From sequence record NC_073058.1: a stretch of DNA of 45,536 nucleotides; one strand, 5' to 3'. Shown piece after piece: positions 9,995-45,536 of the stretch. The stretch's first letter is position 1. Each line of letters begins with the position of its first letter. The translations under genes and the position numbers were made by a program. The notes under the pieces are model-generated. The model worked only from the letters and a program-made list of their open reading frames with translations, had not been told where the DNA came from and did no database searches. The DNA is from Escherichia phage vB_EcoS_WFI.

Positions 9995-10295
9995 ATATGC
10001 AGCGATTGGACTGGTTATCGGTCTGGCGGTTGGATTCTGGCAGGGTGATTCCTACCGCACTGGCGTTGTGGCGAAAGCGGCGCAAGAAGCGCAAGCCGAA
10101 GCCCAACGGCAGCAAACTAAGGTTGTTGAGGGGTCGGTGAAGGCTGAGCAAGCCCGCGACGTGGAATACCGGACTATCACGAAAGAGGTTGTAAAATATG
10201 TTACGCGTCCTAACCGTCCTGATTGTAGTTTTGATGCTGAGCGCGTGCGGATCAAGCAAAGCGCCATCGACGCCGCTAACCGAGTCGGTCTATAG
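9987..10295 (+). CDS. i-spanin (Rz-like)
   Basis: N-terminal TM helix (IKYAAIGLVIGLAVGFW) followed by charged coiled-coil region; o-spanin gene overlaps in another frame. Confidence 0.65.
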   Translation: MIKYAAIGLVIGLAVGFWQGDSYRTGVVAKAAQEAQAEAQRQQTKVVEGSVKAEQARDVEYRTITKEVVKYVTRPNRPDCSFDAERVRIKQSAIDAANRVGL

Positions 10296-15290: not shown

Positions 15291-15351
15291 TTTGGCGCAA
15301 TTCTGCGCGTGCTGTATCATTAATCCGTATATCTAAACAGGAGCTTTCATT

Positions 15352-16077
15352 ATGGGTTATCAACTTCCTAACGGGTCTAGCGTCCAGATTGGGTCCGTAC
15401 TGGGCGACGGCATCGCTGTTACGGCAGCTACCAACGCCACCGCGTCGATCTCTGACCTCGCTACCGGTTGCGTTATTACCTGCGCGGAATCTCATGGTCT
15501 GGTTGTTGGTGATGTGGTTATGTTCACTAAAACCCCGTGGGTCCGTGCGCTAAACCGCGCGTTTATCGTTGGCGCAGTGTCTACCAACGATGTGACGCTG
15601 GCGCGCTTCGACTCCTCGGACGTCACCAAATATCCTACCGGTGCTTTTGCAGTAGGCACTCCGGGTGAAGTGGTGAAGGTGTCGAGCTTTATCGACTTCC
15701 CGTTTATCACCAACGTTGCCGTGTCGGGTGGCGACCAGCAGACGACTACCTTCCAGCCGTTGCAGGTTAACACCGCGATCAGCCTGAACACCACGAAAAA
15801 CCCGTTGGTCCAGACTTACACCTTCACCCACGACGAAGAAGACCCGATCCGCCCAATCCTGGAAGACCTGGACGACACGCAGAAGACCACCGTGATCAAG
15901 TTCACTAACCCAGCGGCAGCAAGCGGCAAAGGTGAAATTCGTATTTACCCGGCTAAGGTATCTTTCCAGAAGATTCCGTCCGCTGAAGTAAACAACGTTG
16001 AAACGGTACAATCCACTCTGACCATGCAGTCTGATATGGTTATCTACCGTAAGGATCTGGTCGAGGCATTGTCTTGA
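15352..16077 (+). CDS. major tail protein
   Basis: RBS AGGAGC; 241 aa; followed by strong terminator and then the G/GT chaperone and tape measure genes. Confidence 0.65.
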   Translation: MGYQLPNGSSVQIGSVLGDGIAVTAATNATASISDLATGCVITCAESHGLVVGDVVMFTKTPWVRALNRAFIVGAVSTNDVTLARFDSSDVTKYPTGAFAVGTPGEVVKVSSFIDFPFITNVAVSGGDQQTTTFQPLQVNTAISLNTTKNPLVQTYTFTHDEEDPIRPILEDLDDTQKTTVIKFTNPAAASGKGEIRIYPAKVSFQKIPSAEVNNVETVQSTLTMQSDMVIYRKDLVEALS

Positions 16078-16106
16078 TTTGGTCGCTTAAATAGCGAGTG
16101 TTAATA

Positions 16107-16130
16107 TGGGGCCAGCACGGCCCCTTTTTT
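16107..16130 (+). terminator. rho-independent terminator after major tail gene
   Basis: GGGGCCAGCACGGCCCC hairpin followed by TTTTTT. Confidence 0.6.
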
Positions 16131-16146
16131 ATTGGAGAATATTACA

Positions 16147-16509
16147 ATGGCGAAAGCACCACTCTTCACACTTGACCCTAAGCCGACCTTTAAGCTGCCG
16201 ATTGAGATCCCGCGCCCTGGTGAGAACGAGCCGGGCAAGATGACCTTTACCGTCCGCCACCGCCCGATCGACGAGTTTTCGCAGACCATGCAGGACACCG
16301 AGCGCAAGCTGTCGGAATATGACGACAATGACCCGGACGGCTTTAACGTTATGGTTGAGGCCATCATGCACGTCGCTGAAGGCTGGAATCTGCCAGACCA
16401 ATTTAACGCTGAGAACGTCCGCCGCCTGGTAGTCAACTACCCGCGCGCGTTCGGCGTGTTCCACACCTCGTACTATCTCGAATTGATGGGATTGCGTGAA
16501 AAAAACTAA
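16147..16509 (+). CDS. tail assembly chaperone G
   Basis: RBS GGAGA; ends LREKN* directly over slippery heptamer A AAA AAC (16500-16506). Confidence 0.7.
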   Translation: MAKAPLFTLDPKPTFKLPIEIPRPGENEPGKMTFTVRHRPIDEFSQTMQDTERKLSEYDDNDPDGFNVMVEAIMHVAEGWNLPDQFNAENVRRLVVNYPRAFGVFHTSYYLELMGLREKN

Positions 16510-16823
16510 TTGAGGCGGCGCGACGCTTTTATGGCCCGCCGCCACCCTCCGAAGATGTAGCCGCAAGTTTATGGGGCGCGGCCCCCGAAGATGTTTGTCC
16601 GTCTGTTGCGCTATGGCCCGACAACGCGAAGATAGTCGCAGTCTTCACAGATTGCTCTACGCAATGGCGCACCGGATTCGGTGGCGCATACGGCATCGAC
16701 TACGGCGTGCTGGAATGGCTATTTAAGATGCACGGCATCGAAAACGAGCAACGTGCATTTAAAGATATAAAGCTAATGGAGCGAATCGCGCTTGACGAAA
16801 TGGCGCAACAAAACCCCGCATAA
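16147..16823 (+). CDS. tail assembly chaperone GT (programmed -1 frameshift fusion)
   Basis: Frame 0 is open from 16500 to TAA 16821-16823 and encodes ...VALWPDNAKIVAVFTDCSTQW..., recognised from memory as a gpT-like chaperone domain; slippery site A AAA AAC. Confidence 0.6.
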
Positions 16824-16828
16824 TGAAG

Positions 16829-17139
16829 CGGGACAAAACGGGACGTCCCGCTTTGTCCCGTTTTGCAAAACTGCATACTTACTCACTTTCATTGCATAAA
16901 CTCAAAGCGGGACGAGCGGGACGTCCCGATCCGTCCCGCCCCCTAAATGTGCATACCTATTCAGATTTCGTGCATAAAACAAACGGGACAGAAAGCGGGA
17001 CAAACATGGGGCGGGACAAAGCGGGACAGCACCCCGTCCCCGTCAGTGCTGCCGCGGGTTTCAGCCGATCGGGACAAGCGGGACAAACCCCAGTCTTTCA
17101 GACTAGACGGGGGTCAATGGCCCCCCTCGTCTGAGACTG
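16829..17139. repeat. iteron array (about 10 direct and 5 inverted CGGGACA units) ending in a ~50-nt imperfect palindrome; homologous to 45264-45421
   Basis: Visible repeats GCGGGACAA / GTCCCGC; palindrome CAGTCTTTCAGACTAGACGGGGGTCAATGGCCCCCCTCGTCTGAGACTG at 17091-17139; conserved block GGGGCGGGACAARGCGGGACAGCACCCC shared with the second copy. Confidence 0.7.
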
Positions 17140-17207
17140 AATAAGGTTTGTTTGAAATTCGCTGATACAATGTCAATCGGCAACTGCATAAAAAAGGGGA
17201 CTGCATA

Positions 17208-19853
17208 ATGGCAGATCAAGCAGCAGGCATCACGCTAAAGGCGGATGTTGCACAAATCAGAACGGCGAATACGGTGCTGGACTCATTCGCGCAGAAGTCC
17301 GAGAACACCGAAAACAAGGTTAAGAAATTAAACGACACACTCGGCAACACGAAAAAGGTGACGGGTGACGCCGCGGGCGGAATGGGGAAGCTGGCAACTG
17401 AATCGCAGCGCGCCGCAGATGGCATGACGAAGCAGGAGCGACTTGCCAACCGCTTAGGCATGTCAACCAAAAACCTCGGCTTTGCCTCACGTAACGCCGC
17501 ATTTCAGTTACAAGATATTGCGGTCACGCTAGAGATGGGTATGCCGGTGCACCGCGTCATGATTCAGCAGCTACCGCAGTTAACCGGGGCATTCGGAGGA
17601 CTGGGTAATACGCTGCGTTATGTTGCTGGCTTTCTCGGTCCGGTAGGGATCGGCCTTGCTGCGGTAACGGCGACGTTAGGTGTAGGCGTGGCGATTACGT
17701 CCCGCGCAGAAAACCAGGTAGCGGCGCTGAATAAGACGCTGGCGCTATCCGGTAATATCTCTGGCCTCACCGCTAACCAGATCCTGGTGCTGTCGGAGAA
17801 CGCCGAACGCATGGGCGGATCATTCAGCAAGACGCGTGACACAATTCAGGCACTGGCGGCAGCAGGTGTGAAAGCTGGTGCTGACTTTGGCGCGCTGGCG
17901 AAAGTGGTGAACGACTTCGCGAAGGTGTCTAATCAGCCGATCGCGGACGTGGTGGAGTCCATCTCCAAATTGTCCAACGACCCGGTGGGCGGATTGCGCG
18001 CACTGGCGGACAAGTATCACGTCGTTACCGAGGCGCAGGTCCAGCAGGTGCAATCCCTGGTGACGACGGGCCGCGAAACCGAAGCGGTGGCGTTGGCTAA
18101 CAAAACAGCCGCGGCGTCGTTCACCAGCATGACCAACGAGATCAAGTCCAACATGGGTACGCTTGAGCGGTCAATGAACGTCGTCACATCGGCAGCCAAA
18201 TCTATGTGGGATGCCATCCTGGATGTGGGCCGCGCGCAGTCCTCGAATGAGTCCGAGATGAAAGCGCGTGAATCCTTGCAGCGCATGACAACGGCCTACT
18301 ATGCCGAGATGAAAGCGGTAAACGCTGCCGGTGGGGTAATGACCGAGGCGCAGAAAGCACGAATTAACATGCTTTATAGCGAACTGGTCGCCCAGGAGAA
18401 AGTAGTAGCGTCACTCACCCTGCGCAACCGTGCTGAGCGTGACAACGCAAGCGCCGCGGACAAATCAGCGAAGGCGAACGAGGAGGCCAACCGCACCGCC
18501 CGCGACCGCGCCGCGTTCGAGAAGGAATTTGCCACCAACGCGCAGAAGCGCGCCGACGAGATCGCCCGCCTCAATTTGCTGAATAAGCGCGGTGTGATTA
18601 ACGAGAAAGAACTAGCCGAGGCGGTGAAGCAGGTCAACGAGCGCTACAAAGACCCCGCACCGAAGAAGGCGGCGGCTATTCGCGTGGATGCTGGTGTCAA
18701 AATGCTGGAGGTCGCACGGAGCGAACTGGCGCAGCTTAAGGAGTCCGGCAAGCAGATCGAGGCCAATGCGACAACGCAGACCCGCACGCAGCGCGCACAG
18801 GCCGCGTTGAATAAGCTGGTGGCGGATAATGAGCAGATGGTCACAGCAAGCAAGGAGCGCACACTAACGGCAGCAGAAAAGCAGCAGATGGCGGAGTTCG
18901 AGGCGGTTAAAGCAGTACGCGAGCAGATCGTCGAAGAAGCCAAGTTGCTGGACGCGAAAGAGAAGCAGATCAAGGCACACGCCCAGGTCGAGGCATTCAT
19001 CAAGAACCAGAACGCTGAGCTAAGGGCCACCGCTGCGGGCTATGCGCTTTCCACTCGCGAAGCGGCTAACCTGCGCGAAGAATTACAGCTAATTGACCGC
19101 CTTCAGCGTGTCGGCGCTAACGATACTGATATTGACAACGCGGTGTCTAAGCTGCGCGAAGTGCAGGAAGCACAGACCGGTGCTAACGCCTCGTTGTGGG
19201 ATGGCTTCAGCCGCGGGCTTAAGGATAGCGTGGATGAAATGGGTAACGGCTACACGCAGATGACGTCACTCACAAAATTCACGTTCGGCGCTATGCAGGA
19301 CACGATGAACAAGTTTTTCGAGACGGGCAAGCTGAGCGCGAAGGATATGGTTAAGTCCATCCTGAGCGAATTAATCAAGCTGGCTACCTCGCAGGCGTTC
19401 AAATCCGTCGTTAGCGCTTTCGGCGGTGACGGCGGCAAAAACGGATTGTTCGGCGCTATCTTCTCCGGCCTCACTAAGAACGCAGACGGCGGAGCGTACG
19501 CAGGAGGCAACCTCGCGGCCTATTCGGGGCAAGTGGTAAGCCAGCCTACCTTTTTCAGCTATGGCGTCCAGGCGTTCGCGAAGGGCGCAGGATTGATGGG
19601 TGAGGCTGGACCCGAGGCAATCATGCCACTGAAGCGCGGGCCGGATGGGAAACTGGGCGTTGCCGCTGCCGGTGTTGGTGGGGGTGGGATGATTGTAACG
19701 ACCAACGTGAACATGGGGACCGGTAAAACGGACACCAGTGTGAGCGGACCGGACCCACGCACCGCGCAGGCGTTCGGCAAGCAAATCACCGAGTCGGTCA
19801 AGGCTGAGATCGTGAAAGCGACGAAACCGGGTGGAGTACTTTACAAACGATGA
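17208..19853 (+). CDS. tail tape measure protein
   Basis: 881 aa, Ala/Gln/Lys-rich helical protein directly after G/GT; C-terminal Gly-rich region. Confidence 0.85.
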   Translation: MADQAAGITLKADVAQIRTANTVLDSFAQKSENTENKVKKLNDTLGNTKKVTGDAAGGMGKLATESQRAADGMTKQERLANRLGMSTKNLGFASRNAAFQLQDIAVTLEMGMPVHRVMIQQLPQLTGAFGGLGNTLRYVAGFLGPVGIGLAAVTATLGVGVAITSRAENQVAALNKTLALSGNISGLTANQILVLSENAERMGGSFSKTRDTIQALAAAGVKAGADFGALAKVVNDFAKVSNQPIADVVESISKLSNDPVGGLRALADKYHVVTEAQVQQVQSLVTTGRETEAVALANKTAAASFTSMTNEIKSNMGTLERSMNVVTSAAKSMWDAILDVGRAQSSNESEMKARESLQRMTTAYYAEMKAVNAAGGVMTEAQKARINMLYSELVAQEKVVASLTLRNRAERDNASAADKSAKANEEANRTARDRAAFEKEFATNAQKRADEIARLNLLNKRGVINEKELAEAVKQVNERYKDPAPKKAAAIRVDAGVKMLEVARSELAQLKESGKQIEANATTQTRTQRAQAALNKLVADNEQMVTASKERTLTAAEKQQMAEFEAVKAVREQIVEEAKLLDAKEKQIKAHAQVEAFIKNQNAELRATAAGYALSTREAANLREELQLIDRLQRVGANDTDIDNAVSKLREVQEAQTGANASLWDGFSRGLKDSVDEMGNGYTQMTSLTKFTFGAMQDTMNKFFETGKLSAKDMVKSILSELIKLATSQAFKSVVSAFGGDGGKNGLFGAIFSGLTKNADGGAYAGGNLAAYSGQVVSQPTFFSYGVQAFAKGAGLMGEAGPEAIMPLKRGPDGKLGVAAAGVGGGGMIVTTNVNMGTGKTDTSVSGPDPRTAQAFGKQITESVKAEIVKATKPGGVLYKR

Positions 19854-42375: not shown

Positions 42376-42492
42376 CAACTAATTTCAAAAAAAAAAGCGC
42401 CGAGGCAAAATGCGACGGCGCTAACCAATAAGAGACAATGAGACGTGATTATTATTACACGCGTGCGCGCCCGTTTCAATATACAAAAGGAG

Positions 42493-45157: not shown

Positions 45158-45263
45158 ATTTTGCGCGCATTGGTTGCCATTTTGAGTGTTTTTAGCTGGT
45201 CGCATTGGTTGCCGTGTAGTGTGAATATAGTGAATAGTTATGCATTTTTATTGCATAAAGTAA

Positions 45264-45421
45264 GCGGGACAAAAAGCGGGACAGACAGGGGGCGGGACAA
45301 GGCGGGACAGCACCCCCGTCCCGCCCCGGATTACGCGGCTTGCGGGGGAGCGGGACAGGCGGGACAACTCCCAGTCTTTCAGACTAGACGGGGGTCAGTT
45401 GGCCCCCCTCGTCTGAGACTG
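45264..45421. repeat. iteron array plus ~50-nt imperfect palindrome, second copy of the 16829-17139 element
   Basis: GCGGGACA units; palindrome CAGTCTTTCAGACTAGACGGGGGTCAGTTGGCCCCCCTCGTCTGAGACTG at 45372-45420; flanking TGCATAA repeats. Confidence 0.7.
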
Positions 45422-45536
45422 CATAAAATCCTGGATTGCATAATGTACGGCAGTATGATGCGAATTGCGGTCGTTGATGAACTAGGCAACCAATGCGAGT
45501 TGTATTATGGTGAGTGAAAAATGCAGTTTGCAGTTA

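What the first reader, a model, noticed from the sequence alone, without database searches (positions are those of the whole stretch)
16498..16823. Canonical -1 programmed frameshift producing tail chaperone GT
Gene G ends ...LREKN* over the heptamer A AAA AAC (16500-16506), a classic X XXY YYZ slippery site. The -1 frame stays open for 105 further codons and encodes a protein-like domain (...VALWPDNAKIVAVFTDCSTQW...) up to TAA 16821-16823. The G/GT frameshift is conserved across tailed phages and is needed for tail assembly.
Basis: partly seen in the sequence, partly recalled or inferred. Interest (0 to 1): 0.5.

Follow-up and report, generated by a model that had tools for sequence, protein, structure and literature searches.

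The report
Tail chaperone G/GT frameshift site
This is the ordinary programmed -1 ribosomal frameshift by which a tailed phage (here a Dhillonvirus of E. coli) makes a short tail-assembly chaperone and a rarer, longer version of it; the call holds up on every sequence-level test, but it fills an annotation gap and adds no new biology.

Summary
The window is a Dhillonvirus genome, 98.8% identical to Escherichia phages Bas85 and SP1. Gene G (16147-16509, 120 aa, Pfam Phage_TAC_4) lies between the major tail protein gene and the tape measure gene. It ends ...REKN* on A AAA AAC (16500-16506), followed directly by TAA.

The -1 frame is closed by TGA at 16497-16499. It opens exactly at the heptamer and runs 105 codons to TAA 16821-16823.

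- **The extension is a real protein domain.** It matches Pfam DUF1799 (E 1e-20), gives a confident model (pLDDT 94) and is under purifying selection. Its first canonical start codon is two thirds of the way in.
- **The arrangement is conserved.** 84 of 85 loci with G homologues of 29-100% identity keep a -1 extension of 103-106 codons. The heptamer is A_AAA_AAC or G_GGA_AAC next to the stop; some lineages have an A_AAA_G variant.
- **There is a downstream hairpin.** It starts 6-7 nt after the heptamer (here 16514-16543, -17.1 kcal/mol). Synonymous sites over it are suppressed and its stem covaries between lineages.

GenBank records of homologous phages (Sweeny, Scapp) already annotate the frameshift product. 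All seven Dhillonvirus records checked do not. The fusion protein itself could not be tested here. Low interest.

The parts
15352..16077 (+). Major tail (tube) protein gene, the upstream synteny anchor
   Evidence: Pfam Phage_tail_3 E 2.7e-32 and phrog_584 E 8.5e-74.
16108..16130 (+). Terminator-like hairpin GGGGCC-AGCAC-GGCCCC followed by TTTTTT, between the tube gene and G
   Evidence: Consensus scan. Phage T1 has an annotated terminator in the same position. Function is inferred.
16147..16509 (+). Gene G: tail assembly (tape measure) chaperone, 120 aa, 14.0 kDa. GGAG lies 9 nt upstream of the ATG.
   Evidence: Pfam Phage_TAC_4 E 3.7e-23 over residues 1-120. Variable sites by codon position are 11/6/75. 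Sequence read.
16497..16499 (+). TGA in the -1 frame. It closes that frame immediately 5' of the heptamer, so the shift must happen at 16500-16508.
16500..16506 (+). Slippery heptamer A AAA AAC, in-frame X XXY YYZ. It is part of the A7 run at 16499-16505.
   Evidence: Invariant in 18 Dhillonvirus sequences and shared with T1-like phages.
16507..16509 (+). TAA stop of G, directly 3' of the heptamer. It is TGA in one relative, which is synonymous (CTA to CTG) in the T frame.
16514..16543 (+). Predicted stimulatory RNA hairpin. The outer 7-bp stem pairs GGCGGCG (16514-16520) with CGCCGCC (16537-16543), 7 nt after the heptamer.
   Evidence: MFE -17.1 kcal/mol, z -2.39, 4 of 200 shuffles as good. 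Only 2 of 12 synonymous sites vary at 16508-16543, against 63 of 93 further 3' (Fisher p = 0.001). T1-like phages have a stem in the same columns, with covariation. Distant relatives have longer stems at the same spacing.
16506..16823 (+). T extension: 105 codons in the -1 frame plus TAA (16821-16823). It encodes a DUF1799 domain.
   Evidence: Pfam DUF1799 E 1.1e-20. Variable sites by codon position are 20/8/64 with no indels in 18 genomes. AF2 model pLDDT 94.2. First canonical start codon is GTG 16707, codon 68 of 105, with no SD.
16147..16823 (+). Predicted GT fusion: G codons 1-120 joined by a -1 shift to the T extension, 225 aa, 25.6 kDa. The junction is ...LREKN-LIEAARR for a tandem slip.
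   Evidence: Derived from the sequence. The product itself has not been observed.
16826..16863 (+). 19-bp perfect-register palindrome (AAGCGGGACAAAACGGGAC / GTCCCGCTTTGTCCCGTTT) followed by TTTT, directly after the T stop. Probably a terminator, and the first element of repeat region A.
   Evidence: I2. A putative terminator is annotated at the equivalent place in phage WF5505, and terminators follow T in T1, Sweeny and Scapp.
17208..19853 (+). Tape measure protein gene, the downstream synteny anchor
   Evidence: Pfam TMP_2 E 8.9e-44 and Tape_meas_lam_C E 2.2e-13.

Best explanation
This is a programmed -1 ribosomal frameshift in the tail assembly chaperone gene of a Dhillonvirus.

Most ribosomes translate G (16147-16509) and stop at TAA 16507, giving the 120-aa chaperone G. 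A minority slip back one base on A AAA AAC (16500-16506): tRNA-Lys re-pairs from AAA to AAA, and tRNA-Asn from AAC to AAA. The ribosome is probably held there by the GC-rich hairpin that starts 7 nt downstream (16514-16543). After the slip it reads CTA at 16506 and continues for 105 codons to TAA 16821. The product is a 225-aa GT protein made of G plus a C-terminal DUF1799 'T' domain.

By analogy with lambda gpG and gpGT, the G part coats the tape measure protein. The T domain of the rare GT molecules recruits the major tail protein so that the tube polymerises around the tape measure. Neither protein stays in the virion.

Shown here: the sequence anatomy, the family memberships, coding selection in the -1 frame, the lack of an own start codon, and conservation of heptamer, stop, spacer and hairpin.

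Inferred: that slippage actually occurs, how efficient it is, which tRNAs slip, and the assembly function.
For: 1. **Anatomy.** An in-frame X XXY YYZ heptamer sits in the only stretch where both frames are open. The -1 frame is open for 105 codons and the +1 frame for 1.

2. **Synteny and families.** Phage_tail_3, then Phage_TAC_4, then DUF1799 in the -1 frame, then TMP_2. phrog_17368 spans both the G and T parts.

3. **The T frame codes.** Variable sites by codon position are 20/8/64, much like G at 11/6/75. There are no indels across 18 genomes with up to 18% DNA divergence. The AF2 model has pLDDT 94.2 and pTM 0.81. Its best structural matches are 'tape measure chaperone' frameshift products of Scapp and Solomon, with TM 0.76-0.84.

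4. **No independent expression route.** The first ATG/GTG/TTG in the T frame is GTG 16707, inside the domain and without an SD. Across 1073 cluster representatives of the T family, the best 150 are all 38-150 aa gene calls with arbitrary starts.

5. **Deep conservation.** 84 of 85 loci with G homologues (29-100% identity) have a -1 extension of 103-106 codons, against 1-38 codons in +1. A Lys AAA or AAG codon sits two codons before the stop. T-family ORFs that reach upstream read KKL or GKL at the junction, which corresponds to A_AAA_AAC_U or G_GGA_AAC_U. This was confirmed at the DNA level in a metagenome contig and in a prophage.

6. **Stimulator.** A hairpin starts 6-7 nt after the heptamer in Dhillonviruses, T1-like phages and two distant relatives. 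Its energy ranges from -15 to -31.5 kcal/mol, and the inner stem sequences differ between lineages. Synonymous sites over it are suppressed (p = 0.001).

7. **Precedent.** GenBank records of the homologous cassettes in phages Sweeny and Scapp annotate joined 'frameshift product' CDSs. The role of lambda G/GT and its 30:1 ratio are reviewed in PMC5009743. The same 'AAAAAAC adjacent to the stop codon' motif was noted in Acinetobacter phage Loki (PMC5313236).
Against: - There is no protein-level evidence for any Dhillonvirus GT product, here or in the papers I could search.
- A_AAA_AAC is reported as a comparatively weak shift site in E. coli (PMC5009743).
- Over a 94-nt window the downstream region folds no better than shuffles (z +0.79). 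The hairpin stands out only locally.
- A few T1-like relatives (L040, L059, L092, L094) break the stem.
- The stem arms also encode conserved Ala-Ala and Pro-Pro residues, so part of the nucleotide conservation could be protein-level.
- G and T show no detectable sequence similarity to lambda gpG or gpT (hhalign probability 0.08% and 1.5%). The functional analogy therefore rests on position and architecture.
Confidence: 0.9

Rival explanations
1. This is still ribosomal frameshifting, but a single tRNA slips instead of the tandem pair. In version (a), peptidyl-tRNA-Lys slips on A_AAA before Asn-tRNA arrives, giving ...REKK-LIEA. In version (b), peptidyl-tRNA-Asn slips from AAC to AAA while the slowly decoded stop codon TAA occupies the A site, giving ...REKN-LIEA.
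For: The stop codon lies directly 3' of the heptamer in Dhillonviruses, in T1-like phages and in both distant relatives checked. Webervirus (GCA AAA GTT TAA) and Scapp (GAA AAG TAT TAA) lack a full heptamer. They keep only the slippery Lys codon, so a one-tRNA slip on A_AAA or A_AAG must suffice there. Single-tRNA and sequential models are discussed in PMC5009743.
Against: The full X_XXA_AAC pattern, with X = A or G, is conserved in many lineages. Tandem re-pairing predicts that pattern. Version (b) cannot apply to Webervirus or Scapp, where the codon before the stop (GTT, TAT) cannot re-pair in -1.
Confidence: 0.25
2. The cause is transcriptional slippage. RNA polymerase stutters on the A7 run (16499-16505) and adds one A to a fraction of mRNAs, which puts T in frame with G and gives the junction ...REKK-LIEA.
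For: The A7 run is one of only two A-runs of 7 or more in the 45.5-kb window. Transcriptional slippage on homopolymer runs is an established way to make frameshifted products (PMC5009743).
Against: Homologous cassettes keep the arrangement with shorter runs: A6 in T1-like phages, GGGAAA in L104, A4 in Webervirus. My own knowledge, not tested here, is that such runs are too short for efficient polymerase slippage. A conserved hairpin 6-7 nt downstream, with suppressed synonymous change, is what ribosomal frameshifting predicts. It has no role while the polymerase is still on the A-run.
Confidence: 0.04
3. T is a separate protein made by independent or coupled initiation, for example from ATT 16509 as the Sodalis phage SO-1 record annotates gp16, or from the internal ATG 16728 as in Bas85. 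No fusion is made.
For: Public Dhillonvirus records annotate stand-alone ORFs here: SO-1 gp16 starts at the last base of G's stop, and Bas85 and 22664B1 carry small ORFs. The protein library holds only stand-alone calls.
Against: No ATG/GTG/TTG occurs before codon 68 of 105, and no SD precedes ATT 16509 or the internal starts. T1-like homologues have no start codon at the equivalent place. In them the -1 frame reads through the heptamer as KKL or GKL, which shows constraint on the slippery site and not on a start. The annotated starts differ from record to record. An ATG 16728 product would lack most of the DUF1799 domain.
Confidence: 0.04
4. The open -1 frame is a chance or decaying ORF and the heptamer is incidental.
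For: In-frame heptamers are common, 49 in the window's long open stretches.
Against: The third-position bias of substitutions (20/8/64), the Pfam hit at E 1e-20, the pLDDT 94 model and conservation in 84 of 85 loci all contradict this.
Confidence: 0.01

Closest known systems
Phage lambda gpG / gpGT programmed -1 frameshift (Levin, Hendrix & Casjens 1993; Xu, Hendrix & Duda 2004, 2013, 2014; as reviewed in PMC5009743)
   Same: Both have the gene order major tail protein, G, T in the -1 frame, tape measure protein. In both, the slippery heptamer lies near the 3' end of G and T has no start of its own (lambda layout). The presumed role is the same: G binds the tape measure protein and the T domain binds the tube protein.
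   Different: The heptamer is A AAA AAC here and G GGA AAG in lambda (sequence). Here the stop codon abuts the heptamer and the -1 frame opens exactly at it; in lambda the frames overlap for 19 nt (G ends at 10133, T is annotated from 10115). A conserved downstream hairpin is present here. There is no detectable sequence similarity: the Pfam families are Phage_TAC_4 and DUF1799. About 380 nt of non-coding repeats separate T from the tape measure gene, whereas lambda T and H overlap.
Tape measure chaperone frameshift of T1-like phages and relatives (Drexlerviridae such as T1 and Klebsiella phage Sweeny; Serratia phage Scapp)
   Same: These are true homologues. G is 30-41% identical, with the same Phage_TAC_4 plus DUF1799 pair and a 103-106-codon extension. 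T1 and Changchunvirus have the identical A AAA AAC TAA, and a stem occupies the same columns. The Sweeny and Scapp records annotate the joined frameshift product.
   Different: Webervirus and Scapp have reduced slip sites (A AAA G and A AAG). In T1-like phages the -1 frame is open 40-170 nt upstream of the site, against 0 nt here. The inner stem sequence differs: GGCGGTT/AACCGCC against GGCGGCG/CGCCGCC.
Acinetobacter phage Loki gp12/gp13 (PMC5313236)
   Same: [quoted passage not shown] That is the same heptamer-plus-stop layout.
   Different: Homology to the present G and T was not tested here. In Loki an extra gene lies between the chaperones and the tape measure gene.
E. coli dnaX -1 frameshift (A AAA AAG with an upstream SD-like element and a downstream hairpin; PMC5009743)
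   Same: Both use a Lys-codon slippery heptamer read by E. coli ribosomes, with a downstream stem-loop at a short spacer.
   Different: The last base is C, not G, which is reported as much less shift-prone. I found no conserved SD-like element upstream: the GGGA at 16488-16491 varies at its last base among relatives. The shifted frame is extended for 105 codons instead of terminating at once.

Membership tests
Tailed-phage tail assembly chaperone G/GT frameshift (lambda type; Xu et al. 2004) | The gene pair lies between the major tail protein gene and the tape measure protein gene | tested here: met
   Phage_tail_3 at 15352-16077; G at 16147-16509; T up to 16823; TMP_2 plus Tape_meas_lam_C at 17208-19853.
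Tailed-phage tail assembly chaperone G/GT frameshift (lambda type; Xu et al. 2004) | The second ORF overlaps the 3' end of the first in the -1 frame and has no translation start of its own | tested here: met
   The -1 frame is open over 16500-16823. The first ATG/GTG/TTG is GTG 16707 (codon 68 of 105), with no SD.
Tailed-phage tail assembly chaperone G/GT frameshift (lambda type; Xu et al. 2004) | A slippery sequence (X XXY YYZ or equivalent) lies within the overlap, in the frame of the first ORF | tested here: met
   A AAA AAC at 16500-16506. It is the only in-frame heptamer position the overlap allows.
Tailed-phage tail assembly chaperone G/GT frameshift (lambda type; Xu et al. 2004) | The two-frame arrangement is conserved among diverged homologues | tested here: met
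   84 of 85 loci, 29-100% identity in G. KKL or GKL junctions across the T family. DNA-level confirmation in L104 and L106.
Tailed-phage tail assembly chaperone G/GT frameshift (lambda type; Xu et al. 2004) | A fusion protein is produced at a low, fixed ratio to G | not testable with these tools
   This needs a western blot, mass spectrometry or a reporter assay.
Tailed-phage tail assembly chaperone G/GT frameshift (lambda type; Xu et al. 2004) | Both products are required for tail assembly and absent from virions; G binds the tape measure protein and T binds the tube protein | not testable with these tools
   Inferred from lambda (PMC5009743).
Pfam PF08748 Phage_TAC_4 (tail assembly chaperone) | Score above the curated gathering threshold over the full model | tested here: met
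   82.5 bits against 21.1; residues 1-120 on model positions 1-124 of 124.
Pfam PF08809 DUF1799 | Score above the curated gathering threshold over the full model | tested here: met
   74.1 bits against 26; extension residues 23-99 on model positions 1-80 of 80. The T parts of Sweeny, Scapp, T1 and PaulSarasin hit the same family.
Lambda gpG and gpT sequence families | Detectable sequence or profile similarity to lambda gpG or gpT | tested here: not met
   hhalign probability 0.08% (G) and 1.5% (T). Pfam returns only Phage_TAC_4 and DUF1799. This is an analogue by position and architecture, not a sequence-family member.
Canonical -1 PRF cassette (heptamer + spacer + downstream RNA structure) | A stable stem-loop or pseudoknot lies 5-9 nt 3' of the heptamer, with comparative support | tested here: met
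   7-nt spacer; -17.1 kcal/mol, z -2.39. Synonymous-site suppression, p = 0.001. 87% of cells paired against 35-60% when slid, and pair 23-40 switches G-C to U-A. Stems of -28 and -31.5 kcal/mol at the same spacing in L106 and L104. A pseudoknot was not examined.
dnaX-type cassette | An SD-like stimulator lies about 10 nt upstream of the heptamer | tested here: not met
   Only GGGA at 16488-16491, and its last base varies (A, G or C) among Dhillonviruses. This rests on inspection alone.
Transcriptional (RNA polymerase) slippage sites | A long homopolymer run that is conserved as a run in homologues | tested here: not met
   A7 here, but A6, A4 or GGGAAA in homologous cassettes.

The most novel reading that the evidence does not exclude
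The Phage_TAC_4/DUF1799 lineage, which has over a thousand 50%-identity clusters of the T domain, may share one fixed recoding module. The module would be X_XXA_AAC, then the G stop codon with no intervening base, then a 6-7-nt spacer, then a hairpin opening with GGCGG. In that case the adjacent stop codon would be part of the mechanism: competition between termination and slippage would set the GT:G ratio and tie it to release-factor activity. It would not be a mere leftover of common descent. This would be a distinct, widespread sub-type of the G/GT frameshift that has not been described as such in anything I could search.
Probability: 0.2. Interest if true: 0.35.

Novelty: new member of a known kind. 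Interest (0 to 1): 0.15.

Why it matters
The practical value is in annotation. None of the seven Dhillonvirus GenBank/RefSeq records I opened annotates the GT product. The T region is left blank or cut into two or three spurious 'hypothetical proteins'. G is often labelled 'tail length tape measure protein', a name inherited from PHROG. Recording the joined CDS would correct roughly 150 near-identical phage records, several of which belong to the widely used BASEL collection.

There is a smaller scientific point. The comparison shows that the heptamer, the adjacent stop, the spacer and the hairpin are conserved together across a very large chaperone family, and that Pfam DUF1799 is a 'T' domain. 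That domain gives a confident predicted fold with no solved counterpart.

None of this changes the understanding of tail assembly.

Tried and rejected
- **Protein word-index search with the fused GT sequence**. It returned only two G-only relatives, so it gave no Rosetta-stone evidence.
- **Exhaustive HMMER search with the fusion**. I ran it with the T extension instead. No natural in-frame G+T fusion appeared among the best 150.
- **NCBIfam** gave no hit.
- **PDB, by sequence and by fold,** gave nothing significant.
- **hhalign against lambda gpG and gpT** gave no similarity.
- **Rfam on 16400-17300** gave only sub-threshold chance matches to microRNA and sRNA models over the palindromes.
- **Folding 94 nt downstream** was no better than shuffles. 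Only the 44-nt window isolates the hairpin.
- **A naive null for '-1 ORF of 100 codons or more after a stop'** was uninformative. In a compact genome the next gene often lies in that frame (24 of 128 cases).
- **Literature searches** for Dhillonvirus or HK578 plus frameshift found nothing on this site. A search for the SO-1 repeat regions was off-target, and one search failed on a short term.
- **ORF 16823-17134 as a possible gene** between GT and the tape measure gene was rejected. Its variability is flat across codon positions, and relatives carry indels and stop codons.
- **The A10 run at 42387-42396 as a second slippage site** was rejected. It is the T-tract of a minus-strand terminator in an intergenic region.
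Full report
**What the window is.** Megablast of 15300-17300 against the phage collection finds 157 records. The best are 98.8% identical over the full length (Escherichia phages RuthEpting_Bas85, SP1 and Haito_Bas83). The matches belong to the genus Dhillonvirus, which also contains Sodalis phage SO-1. The 45.5-kb window is about the size of a whole genome of this genus.

**Check of the observation.** The sequence and translations confirm each statement.
- G runs from ATG 16147 to TAA 16507-16509, with GGAG 9 nt upstream of the ATG. It ends ...LMGLREKN*.
- In G's frame the last codons are GAA AAA AAC TAA. So A AAA AAC at 16500-16506 is an in-frame X XXY YYZ heptamer.
- The -1 frame has TGA at 16497-16499 and therefore opens exactly at 16500. 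From CTA 16506 it is open for 105 codons, to TAA 16821-16823.
- The +1 frame closes after one codon.

Heptamers alone are common: 49 lie in frame in the window's long open stretches. The significance comes from context. The overlap of the two open frames allows a single in-frame heptamer position, and that position is a canonical slippery site.

**What the two reading frames encode.**
- G (120 aa) is a full-length match to Pfam Phage_TAC_4, 'phage tail assembly chaperone' (82.5 bits, cut-off 21.1).
- The 105-aa extension matches Pfam DUF1799 over the whole model (74.1 bits, cut-off 26).
- The upstream gene is a Phage_tail_3 tube protein. The downstream gene is a TMP_2/Tape_meas_lam_C tape measure protein.
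- In PHROGs, G hits phrog_569 and the extension hits phrog_680. phrog_17368 (213 positions) matches G with its first half and the extension with its second half, so that family was built from fused sequences.
- NCBIfam and the PDB sequence search give nothing.

**The -1 frame is a real coding region without its own start.**
- I aligned 18 Dhillonvirus genomes, 82-98% identical across 16147-17210.
- Variable sites in the extension fall 20/8/64 on codon positions 1/2/3 of the -1 frame. G gives 11/6/75. There is no indel in the extension.
- By contrast, the ORF that follows (16823-17134) is annotated as a hypothetical protein in Bas85. It shows 43/47/38, indels, lost starts and internal stops in relatives, so it is not a gene.
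- The first ATG/GTG/TTG in the T frame is GTG 16707, codon 68 of 105. It lies inside the DUF1799 domain and has no Shine-Dalgarno sequence.
- AlphaFold2 on an alignment of the extension with 41 relatives gives a compact helical domain with a beta-hairpin (pLDDT 94.2, pTM 0.81).
- Its best structural neighbours among predicted viral structures are proteins named 'tape measure chaperone'. They include the 236-aa Scapp and 210-aa Solomon products (TM 0.76-0.84). More weakly, they include 'pre-tape measure chaperone' proteins of Caulobacter phages.
- No solved structure resembles it.

**Comparative evidence for the frameshift.**
- A tblastn search with G finds 1094 phage records. About 150 are Dhillonviruses. 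The rest are below 60% identity and are mostly T1-like phages (Drexlerviridae), Webervirus and a few others.
- Across 85 loci, 84 have a -1 extension of 103-106 codons beyond the G stop. The +1 frame is open for only 1-38 codons.
- The 3' ends take three forms. T1, other T1-like phages and all Dhillonviruses have xxA AAA AAC TAA or TGA. Webervirus has GCA AAA GTT/GTC/GCC TAA. Scapp has GAA AAG TAT TAA. A slippery Lys codon always lies two codons before the stop.
- The T parts of Sweeny, Scapp, T1 and PaulSarasin all hit DUF1799.
- The GenBank records of Sweeny and Scapp annotate a two-piece CDS as 'tail assembly chaperone frameshift product' and 'Tape Measure Chaperone Frameshift Product'.
- An exhaustive phmmer search with the extension finds 1073 cluster representatives. 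The best 150 are all stand-alone calls of 38-150 aa with inconsistent N-termini.
- Of the 44 ORFs that reach at least 50 residues upstream of the conserved QWR motif, 14 read KKL near the junction. By inspection, five or more others read GKL.
- KKL and GKL are the -1 translations of A_AAA_AAC_U and G_GGA_AAC_U. So the heptamer and the first base of an adjacent stop codon are conserved, and a start codon is not.
- Two cases were verified at the DNA level. A metagenome contig has G GGA AAC TGA. A prophage in assembly GCA_041646355.1 has A AAA AAC TGA, and the same Phage_tail_3 and TMP_2 neighbours.

**Downstream stimulator.**
- The 44 nt after the heptamer fold into a hairpin. Its outer stem pairs GGCGGCG (16514-16520) with CGCCGCC (16537-16543) after a 7-nt spacer (-17.1 kcal/mol, z -2.39). 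A longer 94-nt window is not exceptional.
- Among the 18 Dhillonviruses, only 2 of 12 T-frame third positions vary across 16508-16543, against 63 of 93 further downstream (Fisher p = 0.001). The two that vary are the G stop codon's second base and an interior-loop base.
- T1-like phages have a stem in exactly the same alignment columns (GGCGGTT/AACCGCC), with z-scores of -2.4 to -4.3 in most sequences that form it.
- On 30 distinct sequences, 87% of cells pair, against 35-60% when the partner is slid by 1-3 columns. One pair switches G-C to U-A and another takes three pair types.
- The two distant relatives carry stems of 13 bp (L104) and about 11 bp (L106), at -31.5 and -28.3 kcal/mol, after 6-7-nt spacers. 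Their inner stem sequences differ again.
- A few T1-like sequences break the stem. The arms also encode conserved Ala-Ala and Pro-Pro residues, so the RNA-level constraint is well supported but not proven.
- I saw no conserved SD-like element upstream.

**Mechanism.**
- The best explanation is a standard -1 programmed ribosomal frameshift. With AAA in the P site and AAC in the A site, and the hairpin at the mRNA entrance, both tRNAs re-pair one base back. Translation then continues with Leu (CTA 16506), giving a 225-aa, 25.6-kDa GT protein with the junction ...LREKN-LIEAARR.
- A_AAA_AAC is reported to be much less shift-prone than A_AAA_AAG in E. coli (PMC5009743). That fits a product needed at a few percent of G; the lambda ratio is about 30:1 in the same review.
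- The assembly role is inferred from lambda. G coats the tape measure protein, and the T domain recruits the tube protein. Neither is tested here.
- Variants of the mechanism cannot be separated by sequence. These are a single-tRNA slip before Asn decoding and a slip of tRNA-Asn while the stop codon waits in the A site. The junction peptide would partly separate them.
- Transcriptional slippage on the A7 run is unlikely. Homologous cassettes work with A6, A4 or GGGAAA, and a downstream hairpin has no role in it.
- Independent initiation of T is unlikely for the reasons given above.

**Comparison with what is known.**
- The architecture is that of lambda G/GT. However, G and T here show no detectable similarity to lambda gpG or gpT (hhalign probability 0.08% and 1.5%).
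- They are sequence-family members of Phage_TAC_4 and DUF1799, and homologues of the T1-type tape measure chaperone pair.
- The same 'AAAAAAC adjacent to the stop codon' layout was noted for Acinetobacter phage Loki (PMC5313236).
- All seven Dhillonvirus records I opened lack the joined CDS: Bas85, SO-1, rolling, Kenya-K19, WF5505, 22664B1 and PaulFeyerabend. The region is blank, or annotated from a non-canonical ATT (SO-1 gp16), or cut into small ORFs, one of them in the wrong frame.
- I found no paper describing the site in this genus.

**Verdict.** This is a well-supported member of a textbook class, useful mainly as an annotation fix. The only mildly new points are the family-wide fixed module (heptamer, abutting stop, 6-7-nt spacer, GGCGG-hairpin) and the identification of DUF1799 as a T domain. 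Interest 0.15.

Noticed in passing
window 16824-17207 and 45225-45420: The 384 nt between the GT stop and the tape measure start are non-coding. They carry 14 CGGGAC[AG] motifs (10 direct, 4 inverted), palindromes and nested hairpins. A roughly 210-nt module here is 83% identical to a second copy near the end of the window. In relatives that second copy follows the helicase-primase gene. The motif counts are conserved in 18 relatives although 39% of sites vary. The SO-1 RefSeq record already flags both copies as repeat regions A and B. Their function (origin, regulator binding sites or promoter) is unknown to me.
   Followed up: partly
window 16823-17134 (+): This 103-aa ORF over the repeat region is annotated 'hypothetical protein' in Bas85. 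It is not a gene: variability is flat across codon positions (43/47/38), and relatives carry indels, lost start codons and internal stops.
   Followed up: yes
window 16571-16726 and 16728-16823 (+): The small ORFs annotated as hypothetical proteins in Bas85 and vB_EcoS-22664B1 are artefacts of the missing frameshift annotation. The first is in the wrong frame. The second is the last 31 codons of T (phrog_14875 is built from such fragments).
   Followed up: yes
G and T homologues in public records (e.g. L002 2348-2710, L021 886-1520): PHROGs 569, 680 and 17368 label the chaperone G and its T extension 'tail length tape measure protein'. That label has spread into RefSeq records of SO-1, T1 and others. 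The real tape measure gene is the next one.
   Followed up: partly
window 16108-16130 (+) and 16826-16867 (+): Terminator-like hairpins bracket the G/GT unit. One has a T6 tail and lies between the tube gene and G. The other is a 19-bp palindrome with TTTT, directly after the T stop. T1, Sweeny, Scapp and WF5505 records annotate terminators at equivalent places. This suggests graded expression of tube protein, chaperones and tape measure protein.
   Followed up: partly
window 42387-42396: This is the only other long A-run (A10) in the window. It lies in an intergenic region next to a GC-rich hairpin and reads as the T-tract of a minus-strand intrinsic terminator. It is not a slippage site.
   Followed up: partly
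window 16500-16820 (T domain model m09a598efb462): DUF1799 gives a very confident AlphaFold2 model (pLDDT 94): helices around a beta-hairpin that carries the invariant QWR...G..G.DY motif. No similar fold appears in the PDB (best Foldseek E = 2.7). A T-type domain of this family has apparently never been solved.
   Followed up: partly
L062 (IMGVR_UViG_2974632794_000001): This is the single G homologue of 85 without the -1 arrangement. G reads on to ...TGC AGA GCT TGA, the -1 frame is open for 23 codons and the +1 frame for 73. It could be a sequencing indel, a natural fusion or a different recoding solution.
   Followed up: no
window 16895-16902, 16971-16978, 17186-17193, 17200-17206, 45254-45261, 45421-45428, 45438-45444: The motif TGCATAA(A) recurs in both repeat regions and sits directly before the tape measure start codon (ACTGCATAATG). 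It might be a promoter element or a binding element.
   Followed up: no
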